Origin: Prochlorococcus sp. AG-409-N21
GTDB taxonomy: Bacteria; Cyanobacteriota; Cyanobacteriia; PCC-6307; Cyanobiaceae
DNA: 64,000 bases
NCBI GenBank assembly: GCA_003215415.1
Contig: QCKK01000002.1
Span: forward strand, 49,914 to 113,913
Direction of reading: 5' to 3'
The notes under the pieces are model-generated. The model saw only the letters and a program-made list of their open reading frames with translations, was not told where the DNA came from and ran no database searches. Positions 32,263 to 61,892 of the stretch are shown in pieces. The position numbers were made by a program, and so were the translations under genes. Every line of letters starts with the position of its first letter. The first letter of the stretch is position 1.

Positions 32263-32285
32263 GCAAGCCAATTACCAAGATTAAA

Positions 32286-33080: not shown

Positions 33081-33095
33081 TGATGTAATGCCACC

Positions 33096-33917
33096 TTGCC
33101 TGGCATTCTTTCATGTATGACCATCGATACACCACAATCCGCTCCTCTTTTGGAACCAGATCCTGAAAAATGGCTCACTCCTCAGCGACTGGAGCAACTG
33201 AATCAACAAATAGAAGGAAGCAAGAAACTTCTTAAGCAAGCAGGCTTATTAAGGGCAGCACTTGGATATTGGGTTAGATGGGAGGTATCCCTTGAAGCCA
33301 ATTGGGGTCAAGATGAAGAAAACACAATCCTGGATGACTTAGAGAAAGACTGGCTTGAGAAAAGCAGTCAATCAGAACAAAAACAAACTTACTCGGACAA
33401 TGAATTGAGAGAAAAGTTAAGAGTGTCTCCAGGTTCACTTGTTTGGGCTCGGGAGCAATGGTCTCATCGGTTGGAATCAATCTATTTAGAACGAAAAAGT
33501 CAACTAGATCAAGCAAGTTGCAGATTAATTAGAGTTAGAGATAAAGGCATCGCACTAGAGCTGCATCACCGCATCAAAGCTGGCGAAACTTCCTTTGAGC
33601 AAGCTGCAAGAGAATATGGTCAAGGATCTGAAAGAAGAAATAATGGTCTTATACCAATGCAGACATTAGAAAAAATGCCCTTTGGTCTTGCGCCACTGCT
33701 AGTTCGATTAGAACCGGGCCGCTTAAGTCTCCCAATGCGCCTTGGGGAAGGTTTTTGTCTCGTTCAATTAGAGAGTTTTAAGCCCAGCCAATATGACAAA
33801 GCAACAGAAGAACTGCTTCTTGCAGAACAGCTGAGACTCTGGATCGATTCAGTGGTTAATTATCTCTTGTCTGTCTTAAGTTCAGAAGAACAAGCACAAG
33901 TTGAGACGAGCCATTGA
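33096..33917 (+). CDS. Parvulin-like peptidyl-prolyl isomerase domain protein (SurA/PpiC-like), no signal peptide
   Basis: The C-terminal half (RIKAGETSFEQAAREYGQGSERRNNGL...GRLSLPMRLGEGFCLVQLE) matches the rotamase pattern. The track start is TTG 33096, and an in-frame ATG at 33117 (MTIDTPQ...) is the more likely start. The stop overlaps the ABC gene start. Confidence 0.5.
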   Translation: MPGILSCMTIDTPQSAPLLEPDPEKWLTPQRLEQLNQQIEGSKKLLKQAGLLRAALGYWVRWEVSLEANWGQDEENTILDDLEKDWLEKSSQSEQKQTYSDNELREKLRVSPGSLVWAREQWSHRLESIYLERKSQLDQASCRLIRVRDKGIALELHHRIKAGETSFEQAAREYGQGSERRNNGLIPMQTLEKMPFGLAPLLVRLEPGRLSLPMRLGEGFCLVQLESFKPSQYDKATEELLLAEQLRLWIDSVVNYLLSVLSSEEQAQVETSH

Positions 33918-36901
33918 CGGCGAGCAAACAAGATCATTGGTTGCAAAGTTTGCAAAAGCAACTTGCGGCCCAAAGACCATTCCAACTCTTACCAGAGGAA
34001 GAGTTATCGGCCTGGTTGAATGATGCCAAGAAAATTAATTTCTCCACAGGCGAGCTGTTACTTCGACCTGATGAACTAAGTGACAGCATTTATTTGGTTC
34101 TCCAAGGAAACGTAAGACTTATCGGGATGGGGGATGGGGTTGATCTTTATGGGCAAATTTCTCTTGATAAACGAGGCCCAGGTCAACTTCTTGGGTGGAT
34201 AGGACTCCTAAGAGGTGAAGCTTGTGAATATGTTTTAGCCAGTAATGATGTTTTTGTATTAGGACTACCATCTGCAAGATTTATACATCTGTTTCTTAAA
34301 TACCCTGACTTTGCAAAATATTTCTACGAGCTAGAAAATCCGCAAGAAACTTATGTTGTTGCTTCTTCATTCGCAGATTTACAACCTAAGCATGAAGAAG
34401 CCTGGAAAAAAGAAATGCTTGACAGGATTAAACAAGCAAGAGCAACAAGCATTAACCCAGAAGATAAATTTGAATCACTTCTAAATCTAGAAGATGGTTG
34501 GAATTGGCATATTAGTACTCCTAAAATTCCTGGATATCCAACAGGGACAATAGTTAGAGAAAAAGACTTTCCTTTACCAAACCTAACAGGCTTCCAATTA
34601 CCCTATAGGTTGGTTTGTTTACCAAACTCACAAATACTAATTACTGAAGAAGATAATGAGGAACATATTATCAATGCAGTTGATATTGACCACAACCCAG
34701 TAGACCTTGAACAATTAGGCATTTTAGAAAAAGACCTTTTAGAGGCAGAAGACAGATTTCCTGTTGTCAGAGGTAAAGGAGCAGTCGGCCAAGCAGTAGC
34801 TGCTTGCGAAATGATATCTCTTTATCAAGAAGTACCTTTTCGGCGAGACAATGTACGCAGAGCTTTTGAAGATAATGAAAGGAGAGGGAAAGGAATATCA
34901 CTTGAATTAATGGGATTTGTATGTGAAGCACTTCAAATGAAATGTCAGTTAGGGCAAACAGAAGGGCAATTTATTAGTAGTGTTGAAAGCCCAGCAATTA
35001 TGGAACTTGATAACGCTTATGTTGTCTATTTTGGTATTAGTAAAGGCAAAGCATTAATAGCTAATCCTGAAAAAGGAATGCAACATATTCCTTTAGAAGA
35101 TATAAAAGAAAAATTAGGACATGAATTTCGATTTGTTTTACCAAGAAGAGTTTCTGCAACTCCTAAGACAAGATTTGGATGGAATTGGTTTACTCCGCTT
35201 TTAAAGAAATACAAAACATCCTTAGTCCTAGTCTTTGCGTCATCATTATTGGCACAATTATTTGGATTAGCGATACCATTATTACTTCAACAAATAATTG
35301 ATAAAGTACTGGCTCAAGGTAATTTAAGCAGTCTAAATATACTCGGCTCTGCCATGATTACAATGGCCTTATTCCAAGGGGTCTTACAGGCGCTAAGAAC
35401 ATACATATTTGTTGATACAACAGACAGAATGGATCTTACTCTTGGTACGGCCGTTATTGATAGATTACTTTCCTTACCATTAAAATATTTTGAAAAAAGG
35501 CCTGTAGGCGAATTAAGTCAGAGGCTAGGAGAATTAAATACAATAAGAGGATTCCTTACAGGAACAGCCTTAATAACGGTTTTAAATATAATTTTCGCCA
35601 TCATATATCTAATAGTTATGTTATTATATTCTCCATTTTTAACAGCAATAGCGTTAAGTACCTTTCCACTATATGTTCTATTAGTTTTTGGAGTAGCTCC
35701 AATTTATAAGTTTCTAATTAGAAAAAGAGCTGTTGCTCAAGCCAAAACGCAAAGTCATTTAATTGAAATTCTAGGTGGAATTCAAACAGTTAAAGCACAG
35801 CACTTTGAATTAACTGCCAGGTGGAAATGGCAAGATAGATATAGACATTTTGTATCTGAGGGTTTCAAAAGTACTGCGCTAGGCGCCACCGCAGGCGAAA
35901 TAGGCAAATTCCTAAATACTGTGAGTGGTTTATTAATACTTTGGGTTGGAATGATGTTAGTTCTTAAGGGTGAATTTAGCCTCGGAATGCTTATCGCATT
36001 TAGAATAATTGCTGGAAACGTAACTGGACCACTTCTTCAATTAGCAGGTCTTTACCAAGGATTCCAACAAGTATCTCTATCAATGGAAAGGTTAGGGGAT
36101 ATCATCGATCAAAATCCAGAATTACAAAATCCAGATGAAATAGGTCAAATTGCTCTCCCACCAATTAAAGGAGATGTAAGGTTTGAAAATGTAAGGTTCA
36201 GATTTGGGAAAGAAGGGGCATATCAACTTGATGATGTAAGCGTAAATATAGAAGCAGGAAACTTTGTTGGAATTGTTGGTCAAAGTGGAAGTGGAAAAAG
36301 TACTTTAATGAAATTACTTCCTAAGTTATATCAACCAAAATCTGGAAGAATCTTTATAGATGATTATGATATTGGGAAAGTTGATCTAAGCAGTTTAAGA
36401 AGACAAGTTGGAATTGTTCCCCAAGATTCACTCCTATTTGAAGGGACTGTTTCAGAAAATATTGCACTTAATGACCCACAAGCCACAACAGAAACAATCA
36501 TTGAGGCAGCACGAATAGCCTGTGCGCATGAATTCATAATGGGTCTAGGCCAAGGATATGCAACTCCTATCGCAGAAAGAGGTGCAAACCTTTCAGGGGG
36601 GCAAAGACAAAGGATTGCTATTGCAAGAACAATCCTTTCCAATCCTCAATTACTAGTAATGGATGAAGCAACCAGTGCTCTTGATTACGATACCGAGAGG
36701 CAACTATGCTTAAACCTTCAGGAATGGGCTGAAAAGCGAACTGTTTTCTTTATTACTCATAGACTCTCAACTATTCGCAATAGTGATGTGATTTTAGTTA
36801 TGCATGAAGGTCGTTTAACTGAAACAGGAAATCATGAGGCTCTTATGAATGAAGGTGGAAGATATGCAGTGCTTTATAAACAACAAGATTCATCAGCTTA
36901 A
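33914..36901 (+). CDS. Type I secretion ABC exporter: N-terminal cNMP-binding-like domain + C39-like peptidase domain + 6-TM domain + ATPase
   Basis: Four regions are recognisable. (1) aa ~22-135, cNMP-binding fold pattern (FSTGELLLRPDE...IYLVLQGNVRL...). (2) aa ~283-412, C39-like region. (3) A TMD. (4) An NBD with Walker A GQSGSGKST, signature LSGGQRQR and Walker B LLVMDEATSALD. The only start that preserves the domains is TTG, overlapping the upstream stop. Confidence 0.9.
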   Translation: MTASKQDHWLQSLQKQLAAQRPFQLLPEEELSAWLNDAKKINFSTGELLLRPDELSDSIYLVLQGNVRLIGMGDGVDLYGQISLDKRGPGQLLGWIGLLRGEACEYVLASNDVFVLGLPSARFIHLFLKYPDFAKYFYELENPQETYVVASSFADLQPKHEEAWKKEMLDRIKQARATSINPEDKFESLLNLEDGWNWHISTPKIPGYPTGTIVREKDFPLPNLTGFQLPYRLVCLPNSQILITEEDNEEHIINAVDIDHNPVDLEQLGILEKDLLEAEDRFPVVRGKGAVGQAVAACEMISLYQEVPFRRDNVRRAFEDNERRGKGISLELMGFVCEALQMKCQLGQTEGQFISSVESPAIMELDNAYVVYFGISKGKALIANPEKGMQHIPLEDIKEKLGHEFRFVLPRRVSATPKTRFGWNWFTPLLKKYKTSLVLVFASSLLAQLFGLAIPLLLQQIIDKVLAQGNLSSLNILGSAMITMALFQGVLQALRTYIFVDTTDRMDLTLGTAVIDRLLSLPLKYFEKRPVGELSQRLGELNTIRGFLTGTALITVLNIIFAIIYLIVMLLYSPFLTAIALSTFPLYVLLVFGVAPIYKFLIRKRAVAQAKTQSHLIEILGGIQTVKAQHFELTARWKWQDRYRHFVSEGFKSTALGATAGEIGKFLNTVSGLLILWVGMMLVLKGEFSLGMLIAFRIIAGNVTGPLLQLAGLYQGFQQVSLSMERLGDIIDQNPELQNPDEIGQIALPPIKGDVRFENVRFRFGKEGAYQLDDVSVNIEAGNFVGIVGQSGSGKSTLMKLLPKLYQPKSGRIFIDDYDIGKVDLSSLRRQVGIVPQDSLLFEGTVSENIALNDPQATTETIIEAARIACAHEFIMGLGQGYATPIAERGANLSGGQRQRIAIARTILSNPQLLVMDEATSALDYDTERQLCLNLQEWAEKRTVFFITHRLSTIRNSDVILVMHEGRLTETGNHEALMNEGGRYAVLYKQQDSSA

Positions 36902-36928
36902 ATTCAAAATGCACTTAGAGAGAATCAT

Positions 36929-37636
36929 ATGAAAGAGGCTTCAAATCTAGAGAATAAGAATGAAGAAGGAATATGTTTTTCATCCAGCTATCTTTCCTGG
37001 ATCACCCGTACAGAATTAAGTAATGGAATATTTAGACTAGATTCAGTATTAATTCATAGATCAAACAAACAAGAAGAAACTACCTTCGTTCTTTGCAGCG
37101 GGGTGCCTGCAGGTCGAATGTATGCTGACACTGGTCCTCTCCTAAAAACTCCAAAATATTTTTATCAATTCATAGGTGGGTCAAAGACGCATAAAATCAT
37201 TCGGACACCCGCTAAGGAAAGCAATCAAAAATTGTGCGAAGATTCTCACTCAGAAAATAAATCTATTTTCCTGGAATTGGACTTTCATTTGAATAAGAAA
37301 AAAGCAAAAGCAATCAAAGCGGATGCTTTAATTGAACTATCTTCTTTAAATACACCAGTAAATTTGTGCATTTACATAAAAAGAAATCATGAAAGCATTT
37401 ATATTGAATCTCCTTTAAAGCATTGGAATTTTCTTTCAAGAGAAAGAAAATGGCAAGTTGAAAGTGCCTCAATTCTTTGGCCCTCAAATCTTGATAATTT
37501 CTGCAAGAATGCAAATTCTTCTTTCTTAATACCCGTTTGCCTACATGCCAATAAATCTAATATGATAACAATTTCTGGTGAACGCATTAAATGCCATGAA
37601 ATAGCAGCTGACTTGTCCTTCTTAGAATTGCAATGA
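36929..37636 (+). CDS. Hypothetical protein (no recognisable motif)
   Basis: A 235-aa ORF, 27 nt after the ABC gene. Its stop overlaps the next start (ATGA), so it is embedded in the operon. Confidence 0.5.
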   Translation: MKEASNLENKNEEGICFSSSYLSWITRTELSNGIFRLDSVLIHRSNKQEETTFVLCSGVPAGRMYADTGPLLKTPKYFYQFIGGSKTHKIIRTPAKESNQKLCEDSHSENKSIFLELDFHLNKKKAKAIKADALIELSSLNTPVNLCIYIKRNHESIYIESPLKHWNFLSRERKWQVESASILWPSNLDNFCKNANSSFLIPVCLHANKSNMITISGERIKCHEIAADLSFLELQ

Positions 37637-38592
37637 ATTCACAATTAAATCCAACAAAGATTGCTTTCATTGGAGCAGGTTATATGGCTTCAGAACATTT
37701 GAAGGCATTTTATGATCTTCCAAATGTACATTTATCTGGAATCTTTACTCGAACAATAGACAAAGCACTGGCCCTAAAAAGTGTATATCCAGATCTTGAA
37801 ATATATGATTCAATTAATTCTTTATATTCAAAAACAAAAGCAGATCTTGTTGTAATTGCAGTGCCAGAATTGGCCTGCCTAAGTGTATGTGAAGAAGCTT
37901 TTATATACCCATGGAAATTGCTCATAGAAAAGCCTGTAGGCTACAACTTCTCAGAAGCTTTGAAAATTGAAATGCTAGCAAACGAACTAAATTCAGAAGT
38001 ATATGTCGCCCTCAATAGAAGATTTTATTCATCAACTATTCAAGCAATTAATAAGCTTAAAAATCTACAAAGCAATAGATTAATAACAATCTTGGATCAA
38101 GAAGATGCAATTGGTGCGCTTGCCTCTGGACAACCTGAAAAGGTCGTCAAAAATTGGATGTATGCCAATTCTCTTCACTTAATTGATTATTTCTCCATGC
38201 TTTGTCGTGGCGAACATGTCACAACAAAGATTATCGAGCCATGGGAGCCTAAGCGTCCCAAGCCAGTGATGGCTAAGCTTATATTCAGTTCTGGCGATAT
38301 AGGTATATATCAAGGAATCTGGAATGCGCCTGGTCCCTGGAGTGTAGCAATTTCAACAGAAGAATTAAGAATGGAATTAAGACCAATTGAACAACTATCA
38401 TTGCAACAAAAAGGGTCAAGATCTATAGAAATGCAAGCGATTGATCCTTTAGATAATAAATACAAACCAGGCATATATCGTCAAGCTGAAGAAGCGGTTA
38501 AAGCTGCAAGGAACATAAAGAATTCTCTACCAATGCTCGAGGACGCGAATAGAAGCATGTCACTAGTATCCTCCATATATCAAAGTCAATGA
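37633..38592 (+). CDS. Gfo/Idh/MocA family oxidoreductase (PtmF-like position in a NulO cluster)
   Basis: N-terminal Rossmann motif IAFIGAGYMASEH and EKP motif (LLIEKPVG). Confidence 0.75.
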   Translation: MNSQLNPTKIAFIGAGYMASEHLKAFYDLPNVHLSGIFTRTIDKALALKSVYPDLEIYDSINSLYSKTKADLVVIAVPELACLSVCEEAFIYPWKLLIEKPVGYNFSEALKIEMLANELNSEVYVALNRRFYSSTIQAINKLKNLQSNRLITILDQEDAIGALASGQPEKVVKNWMYANSLHLIDYFSMLCRGEHVTTKIIEPWEPKRPKPVMAKLIFSSGDIGIYQGIWNAPGPWSVAISTEELRMELRPIEQLSLQQKGSRSIEMQAIDPLDNKYKPGIYRQAEEAVKAARNIKNSLPMLEDANRSMSLVSSIYQSQ

Positions 38593-39272
38593 GTCTTCTT
38601 GCTGTAATTCCCGCAAGAGGCGGATCAAAAGGAATTCCTCGCAAGAACATTCGCCTTCTTAGAGGTAAACCGCTAATTGCTTACTCTATTGAAGCTGCTC
38701 TAAATGTAGATACAATTGATAGTGTTATTGTTTCAACTGAAGACGAAGAAATCGCTTCTATCGCAAAAGATTATGGAGCAGAAGTTCCCTTTCTCAGACC
38801 CAAAAAACTTTCATATGATGACACTCCTGGAGTAGACCCAGTTTTACATCTACTTGAAAAACTAAAGTCATTTAATGAGATTTTATTACTACAACCAACA
38901 TCACCTCTACGTACTATCGAAGACATTCAAGGGATTATTGAATTTAAGCGCAATAAAAAGTGTCCATCAGCAGTCTCAATTTGCGAGGTCTCAAAACATC
39001 CTTATTGGATGTTGAGACTTTCTCCTTCTGACCTATTAGAGCCATTCATTAGGCACCAATCATTATTCTCATTGCCAAGGCAGCAATTAGAAAAAGCATA
39101 CGTTCCTAATGGAGCTCTGTATATATGTGATATACCTTGGTTAAAAGCACAAGGTAATTTTGTTGGTCCCGAAACTCGTGGTTACTTAATGCCTACAGAA
39201 CGCTCTGTAGATATAGATACACAACTTGATTGGTTGTGGGCAGAGACACTCATGCATAAAGGTAAAGAATGA
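38589..39272 (+). CDS. neuA: Acylneuraminate (nonulosonate) cytidylyltransferase, NeuA/LegF type
   Basis: LAVIPARGGSKGIPRKNI and LLQPTSPLR motifs. Confidence 0.85.
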   Translation: MSLLAVIPARGGSKGIPRKNIRLLRGKPLIAYSIEAALNVDTIDSVIVSTEDEEIASIAKDYGAEVPFLRPKKLSYDDTPGVDPVLHLLEKLKSFNEILLLQPTSPLRTIEDIQGIIEFKRNKKCPSAVSICEVSKHPYWMLRLSPSDLLEPFIRHQSLFSLPRQQLEKAYVPNGALYICDIPWLKAQGNFVGPETRGYLMPTERSVDIDTQLDWLWAETLMHKGKE

Positions 39273-40267
39273 CAAAAATTCTTGTTACTGGAGCTGATGG
39301 TTTCATTGGCTCACATCTTGTAGAAAGTCTACTTGCAAAAGATTTATCAGTAAAAGCTTTTTGCCTATACAACTCCTCAGGAAGTTGGGGTTGGTTAGAT
39401 AGCTTGTCGGAAAAAAATAAATCAAATTTAAATGTAGTGCTGGGAGACATTAGAGATCCTCTTTGTGTACGTGAAGCAATGAAAGATTGTACGCATGTTT
39501 TTCACCTCGCAGCACTAATAGCCATTCCATATAGTTATATGGCACCTGCTAGCTATATAGATACTAATATTCATGGAACTCTAAATATTGTCCAAGCGGC
39601 AAGGGAATTAGGAGTTAAAAGAGTTATTCATACTTCAACTTCAGAGACCTATGGATCAGCTCAATTTGTGCCAATTAAAGAAACACATCCCTTGGTAGGT
39701 CAATCACCATATGCGGCTAGCAAAATAGGCGCAGATCAAATTGCTTTAAGTTATTGGAGAAGCTTTGATACACCAATAACAGTTTTAAGACCTTTTAATA
39801 CTTATGGTCCTCGTCAAAGTTCAAGAGCAGTTATACCAACAATTATTAGTCAAATCGCCTCTGGCAAAAATGAAATTCATTTGGGATCACTAAGTCCAAC
39901 AAGAGACTTTAACTATGTAACAGATACGTGTGCCGCATTCTTATCAGTTATGGATGAAGATGAAGCCATAGGTAAAGTTTTAAATGTAGCGAGCCAATTC
40001 GAAATATCTATTGGTGATACTGCTACTCTCATTGCTGAAGTAATGGGTAAAAAAGTAAAGATTATTGCCGACGAAGAACGAATTAGACCTAGTGGATCAG
40101 AAGTTAATAGACTCTTTGGGGATAGCTCTCTTTTACGAAGCCTTACAAATTGGCAACCATCTTTCGGTGGTAAAGATGGCTTCAGAAAAGGCATTGAATT
40201 AACAGCCAAGTGGTTTGTGAATCCTTCAAATCTAAAGTTTTACAGAGCCAGTCGTTATGCAATTTGA
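39269..40267 (+). CDS. NAD-dependent nucleotide-sugar 4,6-dehydratase/epimerase (LegB-like)
   Basis: ILVTGADGFIGSH, the STSETYG and YAASKIGAD (YxxxK) SDR triad, and operon position. Confidence 0.8.
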   Translation: MTKILVTGADGFIGSHLVESLLAKDLSVKAFCLYNSSGSWGWLDSLSEKNKSNLNVVLGDIRDPLCVREAMKDCTHVFHLAALIAIPYSYMAPASYIDTNIHGTLNIVQAARELGVKRVIHTSTSETYGSAQFVPIKETHPLVGQSPYAASKIGADQIALSYWRSFDTPITVLRPFNTYGPRQSSRAVIPTIISQIASGKNEIHLGSLSPTRDFNYVTDTCAAFLSVMDEDEAIGKVLNVASQFEISIGDTATLIAEVMGKKVKIIADEERIRPSGSEVNRLFGDSSLLRSLTNWQPSFGGKDGFRKGIELTAKWFVNPSNLKFYRASRYAI

Positions 40268-41435: not shown

Positions 41436-42025
41436 AACCTTTAATACTAATTGGTGCTGGCGGACATACTCGATCAGTGATTGATGTAATTGAGAAAAGT
41501 GGTATTTGGAATGTAATTGGATTAATTGGATTAAAAGAAGAGATAGGCCGGGAAATTCTTGGTTATCCAATCATCGGTACTGATAATGATCTAATGGTAA
41601 TTAGAAAAAAATGTGACAACGCCCATTTAGCAATTGGCCAACTTCCATCAGCCGACAAAAGAATCCAGTTAGCACATTATTTAAAAAAACTGACTTTTTC
41701 ACTCCCAACTATTATTTCCCCACATGCAATAATTAGTAGATATGCACAATTAGGCGAAGGAAGTTTCATTGGTCATGGTGCCATCATTAATTCCAACGCA
41801 ATCGTAGGCAAAAATTGCATTATTAACAGCATGGCACTTCTAGAGCATGACGCAAAAATTGAAGACTTCTGCCACATAAGTACTGGTGCTTTAGTAAATG
41901 GAGGTGTCCGTATCGGAGCAAACAGCTTTATTGGCAGTGGTGCAATGATAAGGGAAGGTTTGGAATTACCAAATGACACTGTTATTACTGCCCAAAAAAG
42001 GGTAATGGGATGGCCACTGTTGTAA
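41432..42025 (+). CDS. neuD: NeuD/PglD-type hexapeptide sugar N-acetyltransferase (LegH-like)
   Basis: The N-terminal LILIGAGGHTRSVIDV Rossmann-like domain is followed by left-handed beta-helix hexapeptide repeats. Confidence 0.8.
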   Translation: MKPLILIGAGGHTRSVIDVIEKSGIWNVIGLIGLKEEIGREILGYPIIGTDNDLMVIRKKCDNAHLAIGQLPSADKRIQLAHYLKKLTFSLPTIISPHAIISRYAQLGEGSFIGHGAIINSNAIVGKNCIINSMALLEHDAKIEDFCHISTGALVNGGVRIGANSFIGSGAMIREGLELPNDTVITAQKRVMGWPLL

Positions 42026-43026
42026 TTGCAGAAGCAGGTGTAAACCACAATGGTGACATGGCAATTGCCCGTCGCCTAATTGAATGTGCTGCAGAAGCTG
42101 GAGCAGATGCAGTGAAATTCCAAACTTTTTCTGCAACCGATTTAACCACTCCAGAAGCCCCCAAAGCGACATATCAACTCAAAAACGATTGCTCAAAAAG
42201 CCAGCTGGAAATGCTTAAGAAGTTGGAATTGAGCAAAAGTCAATTCCAAGAACTAAAAGAACATTGTCATAAATGTGAAATTGACTTTTTATCAACAGCT
42301 TTTGGGAACTCTCAATTAGAACTATTGCTGCAATTAGGAGTAAGTGCAATCAAGGTGCCCTCAGGAGAGATAACCCATCTGCAATTATTGAGAGGAATGT
42401 CTATAGCCGCGATAACTCACCATTTACCTGTTTATTTATCAACTGGAATGAGTAATTTAGGAGAAGTTGAAGCCGCCTTAAAAGTTTTTCTAGATGCGGG
42501 AGTAAATCAGTCAGACGTGACATTGCTCCATTGCTTAAGTGCTTATCCAGCCCCTCAAGAGCAAGTCAACTTGTTAGCCATGAAAACCCTCGCAGATGCA
42601 TTTTCATGCCCAGTTGGCTACTCAGATCACACACTTGGAATAACAGCTCCAATTTGTGCTGTTTCGTTAGGTGCAAAAGTCATTGAAAAACATCTCACCA
42701 TTGATCAAAACCTTGAAGGACCCGACCATAAAGCCAGTCTCGAGCCAAAATTATTTAAAGCAATGGTAGAAGCTATTCGAAATACTGAAAGTCTTCTTGG
42801 AGATGGACAAAAACGAGCTCAATCTTCTGAACTTGAAACTCGACATGTGGCCAGAAGATCGCTGAGAGCAGCTCATCCGATAAAGAATGGTCAACTTATC
42901 CAACCTCAAGACTTAATAGCCCAACGACCTGCAGATGGACTCAGCCCAATGGCTTATGACCAAATCGTTGGACAAAAAGCAACAAAGGATTATCAAATAA
43001 GTGAGCCATTTGGGTTGATTCCTTGA
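42010..43026 (+). CDS. neuB: N-acetylneuraminate-family (nonulosonate) synthase, NeuB/LegI type
   Basis: IAEAGVNHNGD and KFQTF, metal/PEP site (GYSDHTLG, EKHLT), and a C-terminal SAF domain. Confidence 0.92.
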   Translation: MATVVIAEAGVNHNGDMAIARRLIECAAEAGADAVKFQTFSATDLTTPEAPKATYQLKNDCSKSQLEMLKKLELSKSQFQELKEHCHKCEIDFLSTAFGNSQLELLLQLGVSAIKVPSGEITHLQLLRGMSIAAITHHLPVYLSTGMSNLGEVEAALKVFLDAGVNQSDVTLLHCLSAYPAPQEQVNLLAMKTLADAFSCPVGYSDHTLGITAPICAVSLGAKVIEKHLTIDQNLEGPDHKASLEPKLFKAMVEAIRNTESLLGDGQKRAQSSELETRHVARRSLRAAHPIKNGQLIQPQDLIAQRPADGLSPMAYDQIVGQKATKDYQISEPFGLIP

Positions 43027-44165
43027 GACAAAACCTGATTCCAATAGCAGTATTTACTGGCAGTCGAGCGGAATATGGATTACTACGCCATCTAATAAAA
43101 AATCTTGATTCTGAGCCAAGTATCGATTTGCAATTGATAGTCAGTGGGGCACATTTAAGTAATACTCATGGGCTAACAGTATGCGAAATTAATCAAGATG
43201 GAATCAAACCAAAAGCATTAGTTCCTCTCTCTCTAGACGAAAAATTCATCCCTTCTATGTCAAGTCTTACTGCAGAAGCGTTGAAGGGAGTTGGAGAAGT
43301 TCTTGAAAATCTACAACCTAAAGCATTAATAGTCCTTGGAGATAGATATGAAACATTTGCAGCGGCAAGTGCTGCACATCTTCAAGGAATACCTGTTATT
43401 CACCTGCATGGCGGAGAAGCAACTCATGGAGCTCTAGATGACCGTCTTAGGCATGCAATTAGTCAACTAAGTACTTGGCATTTCACCGCGGCTGAGCCAT
43501 ACAGAGAATGTGTTATTGCAATGGGAGCAGCCTCAGAGCGAGTATTCCAAGTGGGGCCTATGGCTATTGATGGCTTATTGAGCAAACAATTGCTCAATAG
43601 ATCTGAATTTGAATCTCGAACTGGATATCTCTTTAACAAAAGCAATCTTCTAGTTACATATCATCCAGAAACGTTATTAAAAGATAAAGGAATAGAAGGC
43701 TTCAGAATACTTTTAGAGGCATTAGAAATGAAAAATTGCAACATCCTCTTTACCCAACCGAATGCCGATGATGGCGGAACATTTATTGAAACTTTATTGG
43801 ATGACTTTGTCATGAAATATCCAAAACGAAGTTGGAAATTTGCATCTCTTGGCCAAGAGCTATATCACTCAGCACTTCATTTATTTGAAGCAATGGCAGG
43901 CAATTCTTCTAGTGGGCTCATTGAAGCACCGCTGATTGGCCTCCCAGTAGTTAATATTGGCAATAGGCAATCGGGCAGATTGCGACAGGGGAATATATTT
44001 GATATCCCAGACCCCAACTTGATTGTCGTATCAAATGGGATAAGACAGGCTCTGAAGGAAGGAACACGGTCATCTTGGCCTAGACCTGGTATCTCAAAGC
44101 AACTTTCTCCCAGCAAAAGCATCATTGAATGGCTAAAGAATCAAAAATCAAAGGGTTATAACTGA
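43023..44165 (+). CDS. neuC: Hydrolysing nucleotide-sugar 2-epimerase, NeuC/LegG type
   Basis: IAVFTGSRAEYGLL, LGDRYE and HLHGGE motifs. Confidence 0.88.
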   Translation: MRQNLIPIAVFTGSRAEYGLLRHLIKNLDSEPSIDLQLIVSGAHLSNTHGLTVCEINQDGIKPKALVPLSLDEKFIPSMSSLTAEALKGVGEVLENLQPKALIVLGDRYETFAAASAAHLQGIPVIHLHGGEATHGALDDRLRHAISQLSTWHFTAAEPYRECVIAMGAASERVFQVGPMAIDGLLSKQLLNRSEFESRTGYLFNKSNLLVTYHPETLLKDKGIEGFRILLEALEMKNCNILFTQPNADDGGTFIETLLDDFVMKYPKRSWKFASLGQELYHSALHLFEAMAGNSSSGLIEAPLIGLPVVNIGNRQSGRLRQGNIFDIPDPNLIVVSNGIRQALKEGTRSSWPRPGISKQLSPSKSIIEWLKNQKSKGYN

Positions 44166-44203
44166 ACCTTCCATATACACTCCAACTGTGATGACTAAGT
44201 GAC

Positions 44204-45568
44204 ATGCATTTTTACCCCTATCCAGAGCCTATAGATAAGAGGCCTTTTTGCCTCGAACAACCTAACAAAGCGCTTTATGGCTTACCTCTTGAGGTTAAAT
44301 TTTGCAGGTCCTGCGTAATCAGCAACCAACGTCCTTCAAGTACTGCTGAATTCAAAAACGATGGCAAAGCGCCAAAACAGCCTATTAATTTCGATGAGCT
44401 AGACATATGTGATGCATGTCGTGTAAAAGAGCAAAAAACATCAATCGACTGGGACGCTAGAGAAAAGGAATTAAGAGAACTCTGTGAAAGATTTCGTCGT
44501 AACGATGGCCAATATGACTGTCTGGTACCAGGGAGTGGAGGTAAAGATAGTTTTATGCAAGCTCATTTACTTAAATATAAATATGGAATGCACCCATTAA
44601 CATGTACATGGGCACCTCATGTTTATACGGATTGGGGTTGGAAAAATCACCAGGCTTGGATACATGCAGGTTTTGACAATATCCTCTTTACTCCTAATGG
44701 AAAAGTACATCGCTTAATTACACGACTTGCCGTTGAAAATCTTTTCCATCCTTTCCAACCATTCATGCTTGGGCAAAAGAATTTGGCTCCAAAAATTGCA
44801 TCTCTCTATAACATTCCTCTAATCTTCTATGGAGAAAATGAAGCCGAATATGGCAATCCTAAAGCAGACATGGGCTCGGCCCAACGTAGCTGGGACTATT
44901 TCACAGCCGCTACTGAAGATGAGATCTTTCTAGGAGGAGCTTCTCTATCAAGACTACGTGAACTTGGCTTAGAAAAAATAGATTGGGAACCCTATATGCC
45001 TCTTGACCCATTAATGATAGAAGATAAGAAAATTGAAGTTCATTATTTAGGTTATTACGAAAAATGGCATCCTCAAAGTGCTTATTACTATGCAATAGAA
45101 CATGGAAATTTTGAAAGTTCACCTGAAAGAACTTCAGGAACCTATAGCACATACAATTCTATTGATGATCGAATTGATGATTTCCATTACCATACAACTT
45201 GGATCAAGTTTGGCATTGGTCGTGCCACATATGATGCTGCACAAGAAATTAGATCTGGAGATTTAATGAGAGAAGAAGGTGTAGCCTTAGTACAAAAATA
45301 TGATGGGGAATTTCCAGAAAGATGGGCAAAAGAAATCTTTAATTATTTAAGCTTACCTCAAAAAGATTTTCCCGTTGCTTCTACAAAGTTTGAGAAGAAT
45401 GTATTTGACAGAACTTATTACGATCTTCTCTGTGAACGCTTTCGATCGCCACATATATGGAAATGGACTGACGACAATGGTTGGGCACTTAGAAATAATG
45501 TATTTGATGCAAAATACAAAGATCAGGAAGAGGTGGCATCAAACTGGAAAGGTAATCGCGCAGCCTAA
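44204..45568 (+). CDS. N-acetyl sugar amidotransferase (PP-loop ATP pyrophosphatase; WbpG/PseA-like)
   Basis: N-terminal Cys-rich ribbon (CRSCVISNQRP...CDACR) and PP-loop PGSGGKDS, immediately followed by HisF/HisH paralogs. Confidence 0.8.
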   Translation: MHFYPYPEPIDKRPFCLEQPNKALYGLPLEVKFCRSCVISNQRPSSTAEFKNDGKAPKQPINFDELDICDACRVKEQKTSIDWDAREKELRELCERFRRNDGQYDCLVPGSGGKDSFMQAHLLKYKYGMHPLTCTWAPHVYTDWGWKNHQAWIHAGFDNILFTPNGKVHRLITRLAVENLFHPFQPFMLGQKNLAPKIASLYNIPLIFYGENEAEYGNPKADMGSAQRSWDYFTAATEDEIFLGGASLSRLRELGLEKIDWEPYMPLDPLMIEDKKIEVHYLGYYEKWHPQSAYYYAIEHGNFESSPERTSGTYSTYNSIDDRIDDFHYHTTWIKFGIGRATYDAAQEIRSGDLMREEGVALVQKYDGEFPERWAKEIFNYLSLPQKDFPVASTKFEKNVFDRTYYDLLCERFRSPHIWKWTDDNGWALRNNVFDAKYKDQEEVASNWKGNRAA

Positions 45569-45573
45569 TTTTC

Positions 45574-47007
45574 ATGGCTCTCTGCAAACGCTTGATTGCA
45601 CGTCTGGATGTAAAAGGTAATCGCTTAATAAAAGGTATTCGATTTGAAGGCCTACGAGTACTTGGAGATGCTTGTGAGGCAGCCTTAAACTATGATCGAG
45701 CAGGTGCCGACGAGCTCCTTTATATCGATGCAGTAGCCAGTCTTTATGGAAGAAATAGTCTTTCAGAAATACTTCGCCGTACTAGTCAAGAAGTATTCAT
45801 CCCAATCACTGCCGGGGGCGGAGTAAGAAGCGTCAAAGATGCAGGTGAACTTCTTAGTGCTGGCGCAGATAAAATTGCCATTAATACAGCCGCACTAGAA
45901 AGACCTGAATTAATAACAGAGCTCGCCAGAGCATTCGGAAGTCAATGTGTAGTCGTCTCAATCCAAGCACGTCGACGAAATAGTGCAGGAGAGTGGGAAG
46001 CCATGGCAGAAGCTGGACGTGAAAAAAGTGGCCGAGATGTTCTTAATTGGCTTCAAGAAGTTCAAGATCTTGGCGCAGGCGAATTGCTCCTAACATCCGT
46101 TGATCAAGATGGAACATGCTCTGGACCTGATAAATTGCTAAATAGCGAAGCAATGCAATTAGCCAAAGTACCCTTAGTTGTTGGTGGTGGCTTTAGTCAT
46201 TCTGAAGAGATAAATGATGCACTCATGTCGCCAAGAATTAGTGGGGTAGGTATTGGAGCAGCTCTGCACAATAAAAAAATCGGATTTGAATCAATCAAAC
46301 AATTTTTAGGTGCTTCTGATTTGCCTATTCGTCAAACTCTAGTGAATTTGCAAAACTTGAACACCTCAAATTCTTTATGTAAGCGCAAAATAGGAGTGAT
46401 TGATTATGGCATGGGCAACCAACAAAGTTTAATCAATGCACTTAATTCACTAGGAGCAATAGTGAATTTAAGCAATAACTTCTCTGAATTAGATGACTGT
46501 GAATTATTAGCTCTTCCTGGTGTCGGTTCCTTCCCTGAAGGAATGGCACAATTATCTAGACGTGGATTAGATCTATATCTACAACAATGGGTAAAAAGCA
46601 AGAAACCTTTACTTGGAATTTGTCTTGGTATGCAGATGTTGTTCAATCAAGGTGAAGAATTTAGACCTACCAAAGGCCTTGGACTTATAGATGGACATGT
46701 AACTCAGCTACCAAATATTGACAAAGATGGAAATTCATTGGTTTTACCTCACGTAGGCTGGAACAGAATTCTTTCTAGTCCAATTACGACAGAGGGCATT
46801 ATTCCACTCAACCAATATTTTGTTCATAGTTATGCAGTACAAGCTGTTCCAGCCGAACAAATCATTCATTTATGCAAATATGGTCATCAAATATTTATTG
46901 CTTCAGTAAAAAAAGATTATGTAGCAGGTTTCCAATTTCACCCCGAACGTAGTGGCACTGAAGGCTTAAATCTATTGGCAAAAACAATACAGGAGCTTTT
47001 GAAATAA
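45574..47007 (+). CDS. Imidazole-glycerol-phosphate-synthase-like bifunctional protein, HisF (cyclase) domain fused N-terminal to HisH (glutaminase) domain
   Basis: The HisF part has RLDVKGNRLIKG, AGGGVRS and SVDQDGT. The HisH part has IGVIDYGMGN, GICLGMQ (nucleophile Cys) and FQFHPERS. It is a single ORF. Confidence 0.88.
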   Translation: MALCKRLIARLDVKGNRLIKGIRFEGLRVLGDACEAALNYDRAGADELLYIDAVASLYGRNSLSEILRRTSQEVFIPITAGGGVRSVKDAGELLSAGADKIAINTAALERPELITELARAFGSQCVVVSIQARRRNSAGEWEAMAEAGREKSGRDVLNWLQEVQDLGAGELLLTSVDQDGTCSGPDKLLNSEAMQLAKVPLVVGGGFSHSEEINDALMSPRISGVGIGAALHNKKIGFESIKQFLGASDLPIRQTLVNLQNLNTSNSLCKRKIGVIDYGMGNQQSLINALNSLGAIVNLSNNFSELDDCELLALPGVGSFPEGMAQLSRRGLDLYLQQWVKSKKPLLGICLGMQMLFNQGEEFRPTKGLGLIDGHVTQLPNIDKDGNSLVLPHVGWNRILSSPITTEGIIPLNQYFVHSYAVQAVPAEQIIHLCKYGHQIFIASVKKDYVAGFQFHPERSGTEGLNLLAKTIQELLK

Positions 47008-48065
47008 TGATCCATCGCACACGTGTTGATGATTGGTTCACAATCACTCTCAATGAAGACGACTCATTTGCAGCAGCACTAAATGTAATGAGTATCGGTG
47101 GCTATCAACTATGTCTCGTACGAAAAAATAATGGTGGATTAGCAGGAATGGTTACTGATAGTGATATTCGTAAAGCTCTTCTTAAAGGTGTGGCCTTAGA
47201 ACAAAACGTCTGTGAAGTAATGAACGGGTCTCCGCTAGTTGTATCACCAGAACTAGGCGAAGCAGAAGCTCATCAACTAATGCTTATAAATCATTTCTTC
47301 CATCTCCCAATTGTTGATCATAAAGGTCAATTAGTTGGTTTACATGTTGCTCAGCAGCTATGTTCTCCGGAACCTCTCAAAGAAACTCTTGTAATTATGG
47401 CTGGTGGAAGGGGTAAACGTTTAATGCCATTAACTGCAAATATCCCAAAACCAATGCTGCCACTCCATGGGAAACCAATTCTCGAACACATTATCGAGAA
47501 AGCAAAGCTTGATGGATTTCAAAAGATCGTAATTTCAGTTAATTACTTAAGTGAAGTCATTACAAATCACTTTGGGAATGGTGAATCGCATGGGGTAGCA
47601 ATTGAATATCTACATGAGAAACAACCGCTAGGTACAGCTGGTGCCTTGGGAAGTTTGAAAAATGAAACCCGACAACAACCTGTAGTCGTTACTAATGGAG
47701 ATGTAATTACTGATGTTGCATACTCAGACTTATTAAACCTAATGCAAAGCGAAAGATCTGATGGTGTAATGGCTGTACGACTCCAAGAATGGCAAAATCC
47801 ATTTGGAGTAGTGCATAGCGAAGGATCGACGCTACTAGGTGTTGAAGAAAAACCTATTAATAGGCATCAAGTGAATGCTGGAATGTATGTACTAGGACCT
47901 GCCTTGATAGATTTATTAGTTCCAAATATCTACTGCGATATGCCTGATTTATTTAGTCTTGGTCTTAAGGAGAACCTTAAGTTAAATATATTTCCACTAC
48001 ATGAATCTTGGCTGGATATTGGAAGACCTGATGACTATAAAGCTGCTGGCGGGGCAGTTCTCTAA
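47007..48065 (+). CDS. CBS-pair + sugar-phosphate nucleotidyltransferase (PtmE-like)
   Basis: An N-terminal CBS pair is followed by VIMAGGRGKRLMPLT...KPMLPL, the NTP-transferase motif. Confidence 0.85.
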   Translation: MIHRTRVDDWFTITLNEDDSFAAALNVMSIGGYQLCLVRKNNGGLAGMVTDSDIRKALLKGVALEQNVCEVMNGSPLVVSPELGEAEAHQLMLINHFFHLPIVDHKGQLVGLHVAQQLCSPEPLKETLVIMAGGRGKRLMPLTANIPKPMLPLHGKPILEHIIEKAKLDGFQKIVISVNYLSEVITNHFGNGESHGVAIEYLHEKQPLGTAGALGSLKNETRQQPVVVTNGDVITDVAYSDLLNLMQSERSDGVMAVRLQEWQNPFGVVHSEGSTLLGVEEKPINRHQVNAGMYVLGPALIDLLVPNIYCDMPDLFSLGLKENLKLNIFPLHESWLDIGRPDDYKAAGGAVL

Positions 48066-50254: not shown

Positions 50255-50413
50255 AATAAGAATCCTCAGATCAACTAAAAAAGGCGTTGAGCAAGATATA
50301 AGGGCTCCGCCCTAGAGATTGATTACTACCAGCAATAATTTCAATCATAAAAACCAGGGAGTGACTAGCTGATAAAAATCATAGAGATCTAACACGGAAA
50401 TTTAATTGCAAAT

Positions 50414-50445
50414 AAAAAGGCCCCTGCATTGCAGGGGCCTTTTTA
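50414..50445 (-). terminator. Rho-independent terminator (bidirectional-looking hairpin) downstream of the repeat-protein gene
   Basis: AAAAAGGCCCCTGC-ATT-GCAGGGGCCTTTTT is a perfect 9-bp GC-rich stem with a 3-nt loop and A/T runs on both sides. It lies 28 nt after the stop at 50473..50475. Confidence 0.85.
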
Positions 50446-50472
50446 TTAGATGAATCTGAACTGACTGACTAA

Positions 50473-52170: not shown

Positions 52171-52223
52171 GGATATTACTCATTGATTCCTCTACCCGTC
52201 TACTGATTAGAGACACTTCTGTG

Positions 52224-60139: not shown

Positions 60140-60259
60140 AAAAATTAGAATAGTTATTAAACCAATTTGTATATGCAAACAAGTATTTAAAGTATGATTA
60201 GATTTAAAATTTAAAGTTGATATCTATCAACTATTCTCAATTCACCATCCGAATACTAA

Positions 60260-61835: not shown

Positions 61836-61892
61836 GCCAAGCTTTCCTTCTAGCCAACGTATGCTGGTATTGGTTTTATATCGCTGCAAAAG

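What the first reader, a model, noticed from the sequence alone, without database searches (positions are those of the whole stretch)
33096..48065. Secretion genes and nonulosonic acid biosynthesis share one tightly coupled 15-kb transcription unit
Seen in the sequence: 13 consecutive plus-strand ORFs with no room for internal promoters or terminators. They are, in order: PPIase-like, ABC exporter, 235-aa orphan, Gfo/Idh/MocA oxidoreductase, NeuA-like, dehydratase, aminotransferase, NeuD-like, NeuB-like, NeuC-like, amidotransferase, HisF-HisH and CBS-NTP transferase.
The junctions are overlaps of 4, 4, 4, 4, 11, 4, 16, 4 and 1 nt, or gaps of 27, 38 and 5 nt.
Sugar-nucleotide biosynthesis operons normally pair with flippases or polysaccharide ABC transporters, not with a HlyB-type protein exporter and a cytoplasmic parvulin-like protein.
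Inference: export of a protein cargo and supply of CMP-nonulosonate are co-regulated. The signal-less PPIase-like protein could act as a cargo chaperone or holdase.
Basis: partly seen in the sequence, partly recalled or inferred. Interest (0 to 1): 0.62.

Follow-up and report, generated by a model that had tools for sequence, protein, structure and literature searches.

The report
Secretion pump fused to sugar cassette
In this uncultured Prochlorococcus, a ready-made gene cassette for a sialic-acid-like sugar has landed between an ordinary cyanobacterial protein-export pump and the surface protein it probably exports; the join is real but is shared with only one sister lineage, so it is a local rearrangement, not a conserved regulatory design.

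Summary
The 13 same-strand ORFs and their junctions are exactly as described, but they are two modules.

**Secretion module.** 33117-36901 is part of the known cyanobacterial "group I" type I secretion module: a PrsA/SurA-shaped parvulin-like protein lacking the catalytic residues, plus a cNMP/C39-like HlyB-type ABC exporter.
- its HlyD partner (31114-32262);
- a likely RTX cargo flanked by GT4 glycosyltransferases (49010-53399);
- a Wzm/Wzt polysaccharide exporter just past the window.

The parvulin-ABC pair is adjacent in at least 40 of 46 cyanobacterial genomes.

**Sugar cassette.** 36929-48065 encodes a legionaminic-acid plus acetamidino pathway. It follows the ABC gene only here and in Prochlorococcus AG-409-J19. 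In about 20 other picocyanobacterial loci the ABC gene abuts the cargo module or unrelated genes instead. The "orphan" belongs to a conserved Gfo-X-Gfo sugar triplet found in other phyla.

**Junction.** AG-409-J19 has a 106-nt spacer with promoter-like boxes and an extra gene.

Island-level coupling of the sugar to the secreted protein remains possible. Interest is modest.

The parts
31114..32262 (+).
   Evidence: Pfam HlyD_3 3e-19. TIGR01843 type_I_hlyD 2e-50, below its cut-off. Contiguous with the parvulin-like and ABC genes in L015 and L016.
32286..33080 (-). SAM methyltransferase lying antisense between the HlyD and parvulin-like genes
   Evidence: Methyltransf_23 7.5e-8. Same position in close relatives L018, L019 and L021, with a divergent gap of 10-37 nt.
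33117..33917 (+). Signal-less PrsA/SurA-shaped pseudo-parvulin, the T1SS accessory ("SurA" of group I clusters)
   Evidence: Rotamase 2e-7. Catalytic His to Leu and Cys, and Cys/Asp to Gln. AF2 pLDDT 94 with top Foldseek hits PrsA 4WO7 and SurA. Adjacent to the ABC gene in at least 40 of 46 genomes.
33914..36901 (+). HlyB-type T1SS ABC exporter with an N-terminal cNMP-binding-like domain and a C39-like domain
   Evidence: Pfam cNMP_binding, Peptidase_C39, ABC_membrane and ABC_tran. TIGR01846 668 bits, cut-off 725. Best solved relative is E. coli HlyB 7SGR, E 3.6e-148 over aa 295-991.
36902..36928 (.). 27-nt junction between the secretion module and the sugar cassette
   Evidence: Homologous to the 5' part of the 106-nt spacer of AG-409-J19. 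That spacer's TATAAT and TTGAAG-16-TATTAT boxes, and an extra Gfo gene, are absent here.
36929..37636 (+). Member of an uncharacterised all-beta family, the middle gene of a Gfo-X-Gfo sugar triplet; first gene of the cassette here
   Evidence: 112 representative homologues. 38% identical homologue at the same place in AG-409-J19. Triplet context in other phyla. AF2 pLDDT 93 with no PDB fold match. Absent from 300 other cyanobacteria.
37633..38592 (+). Gfo/Idh/MocA oxidoreductase
   Evidence: PF01408 1.2e-12.
38589..39272 (+). CMP-nonulosonate synthetase (LegF/NeuA-like)
   Evidence: CTP_transf_3 1.7e-22. PseF model 5e-48, below its cut-off.
39269..40267 (+). LegB 4,6-dehydratase
   Evidence: TIGR04180 513 bits, cut-off 475.
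40257..41435 (+). LegC aminotransferase
   Evidence: TIGR04181 494 bits, cut-off 420.
41432..42025 (+). NeuD/LegH-type N-acetyltransferase
   Evidence: TIGR03570 181 bits, cut-off 161.
42010..43026 (+). Nonulosonate synthase (NeuB/LegI-type)
   Evidence: TIGR03569 436 bits, cut-off 400.
43023..44165 (+). Hydrolysing 2-epimerase (NeuC/LegG-type)
   Evidence: TIGR03568 372 bits, cut-off 236.
44204..45568 (+). WbuX-type N-acetyl sugar amidotransferase
   Evidence: TIGR03573 359 bits, cut-off 203.
45574..47007 (+). HisF-HisH (WbuZ-WbuY-like) fusion supplying ammonia for the acetamidino group
   Evidence: His_biosynth and GATase. WbuZ 230 bits, below its cut-off, and HisH 189 bits.
47007..48065 (+). 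CBS + sugar-1-phosphate nucleotidyltransferase (PtmE-like)
   Evidence: CBS and NTP_transferase.
48078..49013 (-). 311-aa unknown protein, last gene of the cargo operon
   Evidence: No Pfam, NCBIfam or PDB hit. Absent from 60 relatives. Present in AG-409-J19 and directly downstream of an RTX gene in L110.
49010..50254 (-). GT4 (Glyco_trans_4_3) glycosyltransferase a
   Evidence: PF12000 3e-44. Conserved in the island across genera.
50473..52170 (-). RTX-type repeat protein, the probable T1SS cargo
   Evidence: HemolysinCabind 1e-6. Its homologue lies next to the ABC gene in L021, L027, L028, L029, L033 and L111.
52224..53399 (-). GT4 (Glyco_trans_4_3) glycosyltransferase b
   Evidence: PF12000 2e-35. 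Syntenic with the cargo gene in relatives.
53457..55202 (+). TPR-glycosyltransferase-like protein of the conserved cargo module
   Evidence: TPR families. Conserved beside the cargo gene in L014, L021, L024-L029 and L111.

Best explanation
The array is two evolutionary modules joined in one lineage.

**Module 1 (31114-36901).** This is the cyanobacterial "group I" type I secretion system:
- a HlyD adaptor;
- a cytoplasmic PrsA/SurA-shaped pseudo-parvulin;
- a HlyB-type ABC exporter with cNMP-like and C39-like N-terminal domains;
- a TolC-like channel encoded on another contig.

In relatives this module sits beside its probable cargo, an RTX repeat protein flanked by GT4 and TPR glycosyltransferases.

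**Module 2 (36929-48065).** This is a mobile 11-kb cassette that makes a CMP-activated legionaminic acid. The WbuX and HisF-HisH genes suggest the 5-acetamidino form (inferred). The cassette was inserted between the ABC gene and the cargo operon in the common ancestor of this genome and Prochlorococcus AG-409-J19.

**The junction.** In this genome a further deletion removed the cassette's first gene and most of its promoter-bearing spacer, leaving 27 nt. The cassette is therefore now probably transcribed by read-through from the secretion genes, or from a promoter inside the ABC gene (inferred, about 0.55).

**Fate of the sugar.** It most likely feeds surface glycans of the same island. The acceptor could be the secreted RTX protein or the polysaccharide exported by the nearby Wzm/Wzt pump; which one is not known.

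**Role of the pseudo-parvulin.** It serves the exporter, probably by holding cargo unfolded. It has no specific connection to the sugar pathway.
For: - **ORFs and domains:**
- **Known module:** the HlyD + SurA/rotamase + long C39 ABC trio is described as the most common cluster type, in all but one of 58 cyanobacterial genomes (PMC3140520).
- **Pair conservation:** at least 50 of 68 parvulin-like hits lie directly upstream of this ABC type, on the same strand, in at least 40 of 46 genomes.
- **ABC identity:** its best solved relative is E. coli HlyB. A TolC-like gene is present on contig C7.
- **Pseudo-parvulin:** catalytic residues are lost and the fold is PrsA/SurA-like.
- **Cassette distribution:** the same cassette order and overlaps occur only in AG-409-J19. 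Loci L013-L017, L019, L021, L024-L033, L066, L071, L102 and L111-L114 lack it after the ABC gene, and several show ABC next to the RTX/GT4/TPR-GT module.
- **Cassette origin:** the orf235 family lies in a Gfo-X-Gfo triplet inside sugar clusters of other phyla, once together with Wzm/Wzt. It is absent from 300 other cyanobacteria.
- **Junction:** the spacer alignment and the promoter-like boxes found only in the relative.
- **Polysaccharide exporter:** a Wzt/Wzm pair lies just right of the window.
Against: - There are no transcript data, so co-transcription and the deletion-fusion reading are inferences.
- The promoter-like boxes are consensus matches in AT-rich DNA and are no more frequent than in shuffled sequence.
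- Cassette GC and GC3 equal those of core genes, so horizontal origin rests on phyletic pattern alone.
- A different NulO cluster lies next to the cargo gene in G006 (L015). This could mean the sugar-cargo association is functional rather than accidental.
- Only species representatives and a handful of metagenome contigs were sampled.
Confidence: 0.8

Rival explanations
1. The coupling is truly functional. CMP-legionaminic acid is made in step with the exporter because the sugar is attached, in the cytoplasm, to the RTX surface protein before type I export. The operon fusion would then be an adaptive way to match sugar supply to cargo flux.
For: - The cassette sits exactly between the exporter and the cargo operon, in an island full of glycosyltransferases.
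- The fusion removed the cassette's own spacer.
- A second, unrelated NulO cluster abuts the cargo gene in G006 (L015).
- Cyanobacterial RTX surface proteins SwmA and oscillin are reported to be glycosylated (PMC3034196).
- Flagellins carry NulO sugars through a narrow export channel (established knowledge).
Against: - About 20 related loci run the same exporter and cargo module with no NulO genes beside it.
- No recognisable NulO transferase (Maf, GT42 and the like) was found. orf311 has no detectable family.
- A Wzm/Wzt polysaccharide route is available in the same island.
Confidence: 0.3
2. The juxtaposition has no transcriptional coupling. The cassette is driven by its own promoter embedded in the 3' end of the ABC gene, as is common in compact Prochlorococcus genomes, and the two modules are regulated independently.
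For: - The unit's own 5' promoter must also be embedded in coding DNA, because the divergent gap is at most 37 nt in all relatives.
- The sister lineage has a separate promoter-like spacer.
- The stop-codon region reads TAAATT, a possible -10 box (by eye).
Against: - No terminator-like hairpin lies between the ABC gene and orf235.
- The relative's two promoter-like boxes are deleted here.
- The gap is only 27 nt.
Confidence: 0.4
3. The ABC protein exports the legionaminic-acid glycan itself, acting as a glycan or lipid-linked-sugar exporter, rather than exporting a protein.
For: Its position directly upstream of the sugar genes. Weak matches to the MsbA and PglK models.
Against: - The best match is HlyB, including the C39-like domain.
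- It has HlyD and PrsA-like partners.
- It sits next to RTX cargo in relatives that have no sugar cassette.
- A separate Wzm/Wzt pair is present.
Confidence: 0.04

Closest known systems
Cyanobacterial "group I bacteriocin-type" gene cluster (Wang, Fewer and Sivonen 2011, PMC3140520)
   Same: HlyD, a rotamase-domain "SurA" protein and a long-type C39-domain ABC transporter. Present in nearly every cyanobacterium, including Prochlorococcus.
   Different: - Here HlyD is separated from the other two genes by an antisense methyltransferase.
- The neighbouring candidate cargo is a 565-aa RTX protein, not a double-glycine peptide.
- A sugar cassette follows the ABC gene.
E. coli HlyB-HlyD-TolC haemolysin type I secretion system
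   Same: The ABC protein aligns with HlyB over 697 residues, including the C39-like domain (E 3.6e-148). An MFP and a TolC-like gene are present. An RTX-repeat protein lies nearby.
   Different: - An extra N-terminal cNMP-binding-like domain.
- A dedicated cytoplasmic PrsA-like partner.
- No acyltransferase.
- Glycosyltransferases flank the cargo gene.
SwmA S-layer glycoprotein and the swimming-motility secretion locus of Synechococcus WH8102; Sll1951 with Sll1180/Sll1181 of Synechocystis
   Same: Marine picocyanobacterial RTX surface proteins reported as glycosylated and exported in one step (PMC3034196). The locus equivalence comes from my own recall and earlier scan notes and was not tested here.
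   Different: The cargo here is much smaller (565 aa, against 130 kDa for SwmA) and of unknown function. No nonulosonate pathway is reported beside those loci, to my knowledge.
Campylobacter jejuni legionaminic acid pathway (LegB, C, H, G, I, F plus PtmE) in the flagellin glycosylation island
   Same: The full set of LegB, LegC, NeuD/LegH, NeuC/LegG, NeuB/LegI, CMP-synthetase and a CBS-nucleotidyltransferase. As in C. jejuni, the sugar genes lie next to the gene of an exported protein.
   Different: - No Maf-type transferase was found.
- WbuX plus a HisF-HisH fusion takes the place of the Campylobacter acetamidino enzymes.
- Secretion is by a T1SS rather than a flagellar T3SS.
- The acceptor is unknown.
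PrsA / SurA / PEB4 parvulin-type foldase chaperones
   Same: N- and C-terminal helical arms around a parvulin domain. Foldseek E 2e-9 to 1e-5 over 220-280 columns.
   Different: It is cytoplasmic (no signal peptide), whereas these are extracytoplasmic. Both catalytic histidines and the Cys/Asp are replaced across the whole family.

Membership tests
Type I secretion system (HlyB group with C39-like domain) | ABC exporter with an N-terminal C39-like domain, TMD and NBD, related to HlyB | tested here: met
   Pfam C39, ABC_membrane and ABC_tran. HlyB 7SGR E 3.6e-148 over aa 295-991. The TIGR01846 score of 668 is just below its cut-off of 725.
Type I secretion system (HlyB group with C39-like domain) | Catalytically inactive C39-like domain (no Cys/His dyad) | tested here: inconclusive
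   Judged only by eye from the translation. The HFVV-type His appears to be replaced (AYVV) and DP reads NP. No formal alignment was run.
Type I secretion system (HlyB group with C39-like domain) | HlyD-type membrane fusion protein and TolC-type outer membrane factor | tested here: met
   HlyD_3 and TIGR01843 at 31114-32262. OEP family above its cut-off on G000:C7.
Type I secretion system (HlyB group with C39-like domain) | Cargo with Gly/Asp-rich Ca-binding repeats and a C-terminal signal, encoded nearby | tested here: inconclusive
   HemolysinCabind 1e-6 at 50473-52170. Its homologues adjoin the ABC gene in many relatives. Neither the C-terminal signal nor export was tested.
Cyanobacterial group I cluster (PMC3140520) | HlyD + rotamase-domain SurA-like protein + long-type C39 ABC in one cluster | tested here: met
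   All three lie within 31114-36901. The definition was read. The parvulin-ABC pair is adjacent in at least 40 of 46 genomes.
Parvulin peptidyl-prolyl isomerase (active enzyme) | Catalytic His...Cys/Asp...His set (Pin1 His59/Cys113/His157 equivalents) | tested here: not met
   Alignment to the 2M1I parvulin gives His to Leu, Asp to Gln and His to Cys. The family-wide alignment shows no His at either position (the Par10 reference sequence was recalled from memory).
PrsA/SurA-type chaperone architecture | Parvulin domain inserted between N- and C-terminal helical arms | tested here: met
   AF2 pLDDT 94.4, helices 16-130 and 228-265 around a beta-rich core. Top folds are PrsA, SurA and PEB4. Whole-chain TM scores are only 0.33-0.43.
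Legionaminic acid biosynthesis pathway | LegB dehydratase and LegC aminotransferase, which distinguish Leg from Pse and Neu | tested here: met
   TIGR04180 513 against 475 and TIGR04181 494 against 420. The PseB and PseC models score far below their cut-offs.
Legionaminic acid biosynthesis pathway | N-acetyltransferase, hydrolysing 2-epimerase, NulO synthase, CMP-synthetase and GDP-sugar-forming nucleotidyltransferase | tested here: met
   NeuD, NeuC and NeuB models above their cut-offs. CTP_transf_3. CBS + NTP_transferase. Nucleotide specificity cannot be tested with these tools.
Acetamidino (WbuXYZ-type) sugar amidation | WbuX amidotransferase plus HisH/HisF-like glutaminase and cyclase | tested here: met
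   WbuX 359 against 203. HisF-HisH fusion with WbuZ 230 (below its cut-off of 300) and HisH 189 against 105. That legionaminic acid is the substrate is inferred.
Single polycistronic transcription unit (operon) 33096-48065 | One primary transcript spanning all 13 genes | not testable with these tools
Indirect evidence only: no terminator-like site at the junction and a 27-nt gap.
Single polycistronic transcription unit (operon) 33096-48065 | Gene order conserved across lineages | tested here: not met
   The ABC-cassette adjacency occurs in 2 lineages only (window and AG-409-J19) out of about 22 picocyanobacterial loci examined.

The most novel reading that the evidence does not exclude
The RTX surface protein is decorated in the cytoplasm with 5-acetamidino-legionaminic acid and is then exported through the HlyB-type pump while the PrsA-like pseudo-parvulin holds it unfolded. 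This would be the first nonulosonate-glycosylated type I secretion substrate. The operon fusion would match sugar supply to cargo export, and orf311 (cargo-linked, unknown fold) would be a new kind of nonulosonate transferase.
Probability: 0.15. Interest if true: 0.7.

Novelty: new variant of a known kind. Interest (0 to 1): 0.34.

Why it matters
Prochlorococcus cell-surface islands are the main battleground with phages and grazers. This locus shows how such an island is rebuilt: a complete sialic-acid-like sugar cassette, of a kind that in another phylum accompanies a Wzm/Wzt polysaccharide pump, was dropped between a protein-secretion pump and its likely cargo, then welded to the pump gene by a deletion.

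The welding is a plausible example of operon fusion, and the locus gives a concrete, testable candidate for a nonulosonate-coated secreted protein in the most abundant phototroph.

The secretion module itself, including the chaperone-like partner, is already catalogued, and the linkage is not conserved. The finding is therefore of local rather than general significance.

Tried and rejected
2. **Word-indexed homology search for orf235.** It found nothing. The exhaustive HMMER search then found 112 relatives, so I rejected the "orphan" label.
3. **Identifying orf235.** Pfam on 40 family members and a PDB profile search gave nothing. Foldseek on a confident model also gave no match, with TM about 0.1. 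Its function stays unknown.
4. **Identifying orf311.** There are no Pfam, NCBIfam or PDB hits. It is absent from 60 relatives, and a metagenome scan returned one contig. I considered it as the Leg transferase but could not support that. In L110 it follows the cargo gene with no sugar genes visible on that short contig.
5. **Compositional signal of transfer.** There is none; cassette GC3 equals that of core genes.
6. **Literature.** No open paper links parvulin and T1SS in cyanobacteria beyond the 2011 catalogue. Searches for SYNW0192-0195 and the McCarren and Brahamsha 2005 paper returned nothing readable. The sll1180 search was uninformative.
7. **Hairpin at 33087-33107.** I checked it for conservation in two relatives and it is not evidently conserved.
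8. **ABC as a glycan exporter.** Rejected.
Full report
**Observation.** Pfam and NCBIfam confirm the identities:
- a parvulin-like protein (Rotamase, 2e-7);
- a 995-aa ABC exporter with cNMP-binding, C39-like, transmembrane and ATPase domains (TIGR01846 HlyB type, 668 bits, just under its cut-off);
- a 235-aa protein with no family hit;
- a Gfo/Idh/MocA oxidoreductase and a CMP-sugar synthetase;
- LegB and LegC, both above their curated cut-offs, with the Pse models far below theirs;
- NeuD-, NeuB- and NeuC-type enzymes above their cut-offs;
- WbuX, a HisF-HisH fusion and a CBS-nucleotidyltransferase.

The sugar block is therefore a legionaminic-acid-type pathway with an acetamidino module. 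The first gene probably starts at ATG 33117: the database's own record is 266 aa and its relatives are 264 aa.

- A HlyD-family adaptor gene lies at 31114-32262. It is separated from the parvulin-like gene by a methyltransferase on the opposite strand.
- On the other side of the sugar block, on the minus strand, lies an operon of GT4 - RTX-repeat protein - GT4 - a 311-aa unknown (53399 down to 48078). It is followed by a TPR-glycosyltransferase-like gene, more GT4 genes, a BNR protein, a sulfatase and sulfotransferases.
- Upstream are the dTDP-rhamnose and Kdo genes.
- Just beyond the window's right edge, the same contig carries a Wzt/Wzm-type polysaccharide ABC transporter with GT4, GT2 and RgpF genes, and then secA.
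- A TolC-like gene lies on another contig.

The 13 genes thus sit inside a large cell-surface island that holds a complete type I secretion system, a likely cargo and a conventional polysaccharide exporter. The genome is a 1.28-Mb, 65%-complete assembly. Its nearest named relatives are Prochlorococcus single-cell genomes.

**The secretion pair is an old, known module.**
- Homologues of the parvulin-like protein occur in 46 of 61 cyanobacterial genomes sampled.
- At least 50 of the 68 hits, in at least 40 genomes, lie immediately upstream of a homologue of this ABC protein on the same strand. Five more are adjacent to shorter ABC variants, judged by eye from the coordinates.
- In other genera the order is HlyD-parvulin-ABC or parvulin-ABC-HlyD as one block.
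- Wang, Fewer and Sivonen (2011) catalogued exactly this trio (HlyD, a rotamase-domain "SurA" and a long-type C39 ABC transporter) as "group I". It was the commonest cluster type, present in all but one of 58 cyanobacterial genomes, including Prochlorococcus (PMC3140520).
- The ABC protein's best solved relative is E. coli HlyB, aligned across its C39-like domain (E 3.6e-148).

**The parvulin-like protein looks like a chaperone, not an enzyme.**
- In an alignment to a solved parvulin, the two catalytic histidines align with Leu and Cys and the catalytic Cys/Asp with Gln.
- No member of a phylum-wide sample has His at either position.
- An AlphaFold model built on 36 sequences is confident (pLDDT 94.4). 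It shows long N- and C-terminal helices around the parvulin core.
- Its best structural matches are PrsA, SurA and PEB4, at E 2e-9 to 1e-5 over 220-280 columns, though whole-chain TM scores are only 0.33-0.43.
- There is no N-terminal hydrophobic segment.

**The sugar cassette is a lineage-specific insert.** NeuB-type genes occur in 26 of 61 relatives but almost never near the secretion pair. I examined about 22 picocyanobacterial loci around ABC homologues.
- Only Prochlorococcus AG-409-J19 has the same layout. Its ABC protein is 73% identical. It shows HlyD, antisense methyltransferase, parvulin-like, ABC, then the Leg cassette in the same order with nearly the same overlaps, then orf311-GT4-RTX-GT4 and TPR-GT.
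- In the others the ABC gene is followed by one of three things: the RTX cargo or its GT4/TPR-GT partners (L021, L024, L025, L027, L028, L029, L033, L066, L111), toxin-antitoxin genes (L019), or unrelated sugar genes (L013).
- The commonest arrangement, and so probably the ancestral one, is ABC beside the cargo module. The cassette was probably inserted between them once, in the ancestor of two sister lineages.
- Flank and cassette proteins show similar identities (60-81%), which fits vertical descent since then.
- Cassette GC3 does not differ from that of core genes.

**The "orphan" belongs to the cassette.**
- An exhaustive HMMER search found 112 representative relatives. None were found in 300 other cyanobacterial genomes sampled across the phylum.
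- In a Pseudomonadota MAG and in an environmental contig, the homologue is the middle gene of a Gfo(about 340 aa)-X-Gfo(about 318 aa) triplet inside sugar clusters. In one case the triplet lies next to NeuB, NeuA, NeuC, HisF, HisH and a WbuX-sized gene with no Pfam hit, and is followed by Wzm/Wzt.
- AG-409-J19 has the full triplet. This window lacks the first Gfo gene.
- The family has twelve invariant residues, including R92, H165, N167 and E178. Its confident all-beta model has no PDB counterpart.

**The junction.**
- In AG-409-J19 the ABC stop codon is followed by 106 nt, which contain a TATAAT and a TTGAAG-16-TATTAT match, and then by the extra Gfo gene.
- The window's 27-nt spacer aligns with the first part of that spacer but lacks both boxes and the gene.
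- Because the triplet is conserved in distant phyla, a deletion in the window's lineage is the simpler reading.
- No terminator-like hairpin lies at the junction.
- Together these make read-through from the secretion genes plausible. I put it at about 0.55.
The unit's own 5' end is 36 nt from a divergent gene, and 10-37 nt in relatives. Promoters in this genome must therefore lie in coding DNA in any case.
- The consensus scans are no better than shuffled sequence.

**Function.** The shown facts are the gene content, the conserved exporter-cargo-glycosyltransferase neighbourhood and the restricted distribution of the cassette.

It is inferred that the exporter secretes the RTX protein. It is also inferred that the cassette makes CMP-5-acetamidino-legionaminic acid for a surface glycan.

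Two acceptors are open:
- **The RTX protein.** Cyanobacterial RTX surface proteins such as SwmA and oscillin are reported to be glycosylated (PMC3034196). A second, unrelated NulO cluster abuts the cargo gene in G006.
- **The polysaccharide exported by Wzm/Wzt.**

orf311 is found only in this genome, in AG-409-J19 and in one metagenome contig, where it directly follows an RTX gene. It is a lead for a cargo-modifying enzyme, but it has no recognisable family.

**Verdict.** The secretion module is already known, the sugar pathway is a known kind, and their fusion is a local variant shared by two lineages. Interest is modest. The most novel surviving reading, a nonulosonate-glycosylated type I cargo, has a probability of about 0.15.

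Noticed in passing
window 36929-37636; L105 1671-2360; L106 7001-7723; L108 7001-7690: The 235-aa protein belongs to an unnamed family of about 230-260 aa that always sits between two Gfo/Idh/MocA genes in sugar clusters of several phyla. It has twelve invariant residues and a confident all-beta AlphaFold model (pLDDT 93) with no PDB fold match. It may be a new sugar-modifying enzyme.
   Followed up: partly
window 48078-49013 (-); L105 12801-13733; L110 1027-1971: A 311-aa protein with no detectable family overlaps the stop of the GT4a gene by 4 nt. It is absent from 60 cyanobacterial relatives. It is present in AG-409-J19 and, in a metagenome contig, directly downstream of an RTX cargo gene, so it appears to be cargo-linked.
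   Followed up: partly
G000:C2:114894-116545 (L109 1395-3046), about 1-2.6 kb right of the window: A Wzt/Wzm-type polysaccharide ABC transporter pair with GT4, GT2 and RgpF genes closes the surface-glycan island just before secA. No Wzx-type flippase was found in the (incomplete) genome.
   Followed up: partly
window 32286-33080 (-) and relatives L013, L018, L019, L021, L111-L114: In this picocyanobacterial clade, one to three genes (a methyltransferase, sometimes a second methyltransferase and a GT4) are inserted antisense between the HlyD gene and the parvulin-ABC pair. The divergent gap is only 10-37 nt.
   Followed up: no
window 58955-62876; L014 339-3146; L015 18882-19995; L016 4057-5701; L025: A BNR-repeat (sialidase-like fold) protein, a sulfatase and sulfotransferases travel with the T1SS island across several picocyanobacterial genera, next to the HlyD gene. 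This hints at a sulfated surface glycan.
   Followed up: no
L015 (G006:C6) 134-7391: A different nonulosonate cluster (LegB-like at 50% identity; NeuB- and NeuC-like at about 28-30%) lies divergently next to the RTX cargo gene of another genus. This is a second, independent sugar-cargo neighbourhood.
   Followed up: partly
L111 9266-12592: In one close relative the ABC gene is followed on the same strand by the RTX cargo gene and then a 530-aa radical SAM protein, a possible cargo-modifying enzyme.
   Followed up: no
L019 13856-16554: In another close relative the place of the cargo module downstream of the ABC gene is taken by a cluster of toxin-antitoxin genes (YhaV/PrlF, HicB-like, TacA-like).
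   Followed up: no
L032 (PBRQ01000008.1): A contig labelled as a Gammaproteobacteria MAG carries the Prochlorococcus-type HlyD / GT4 / methyltransferase / parvulin-like module, with proteins 49-64% identical to the window's and a partial ABC match. It is probably a binning error.
   Followed up: no
G061:C1:132097-133770 (L103, L105 15092-16732): The AG-409-J19 homologue of the RTX cargo (69% identical) shows one in-frame TAA in the search alignment. This could be a sequencing error, or the match may simply run past the gene's end.
   Followed up: no
window 33087-33107: A 7-bp hairpin (AATGCCA...TGGCATT) fills the short spacer just upstream of the parvulin-like gene's ATG. It is not evidently conserved in two relatives.
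   Followed up: partly
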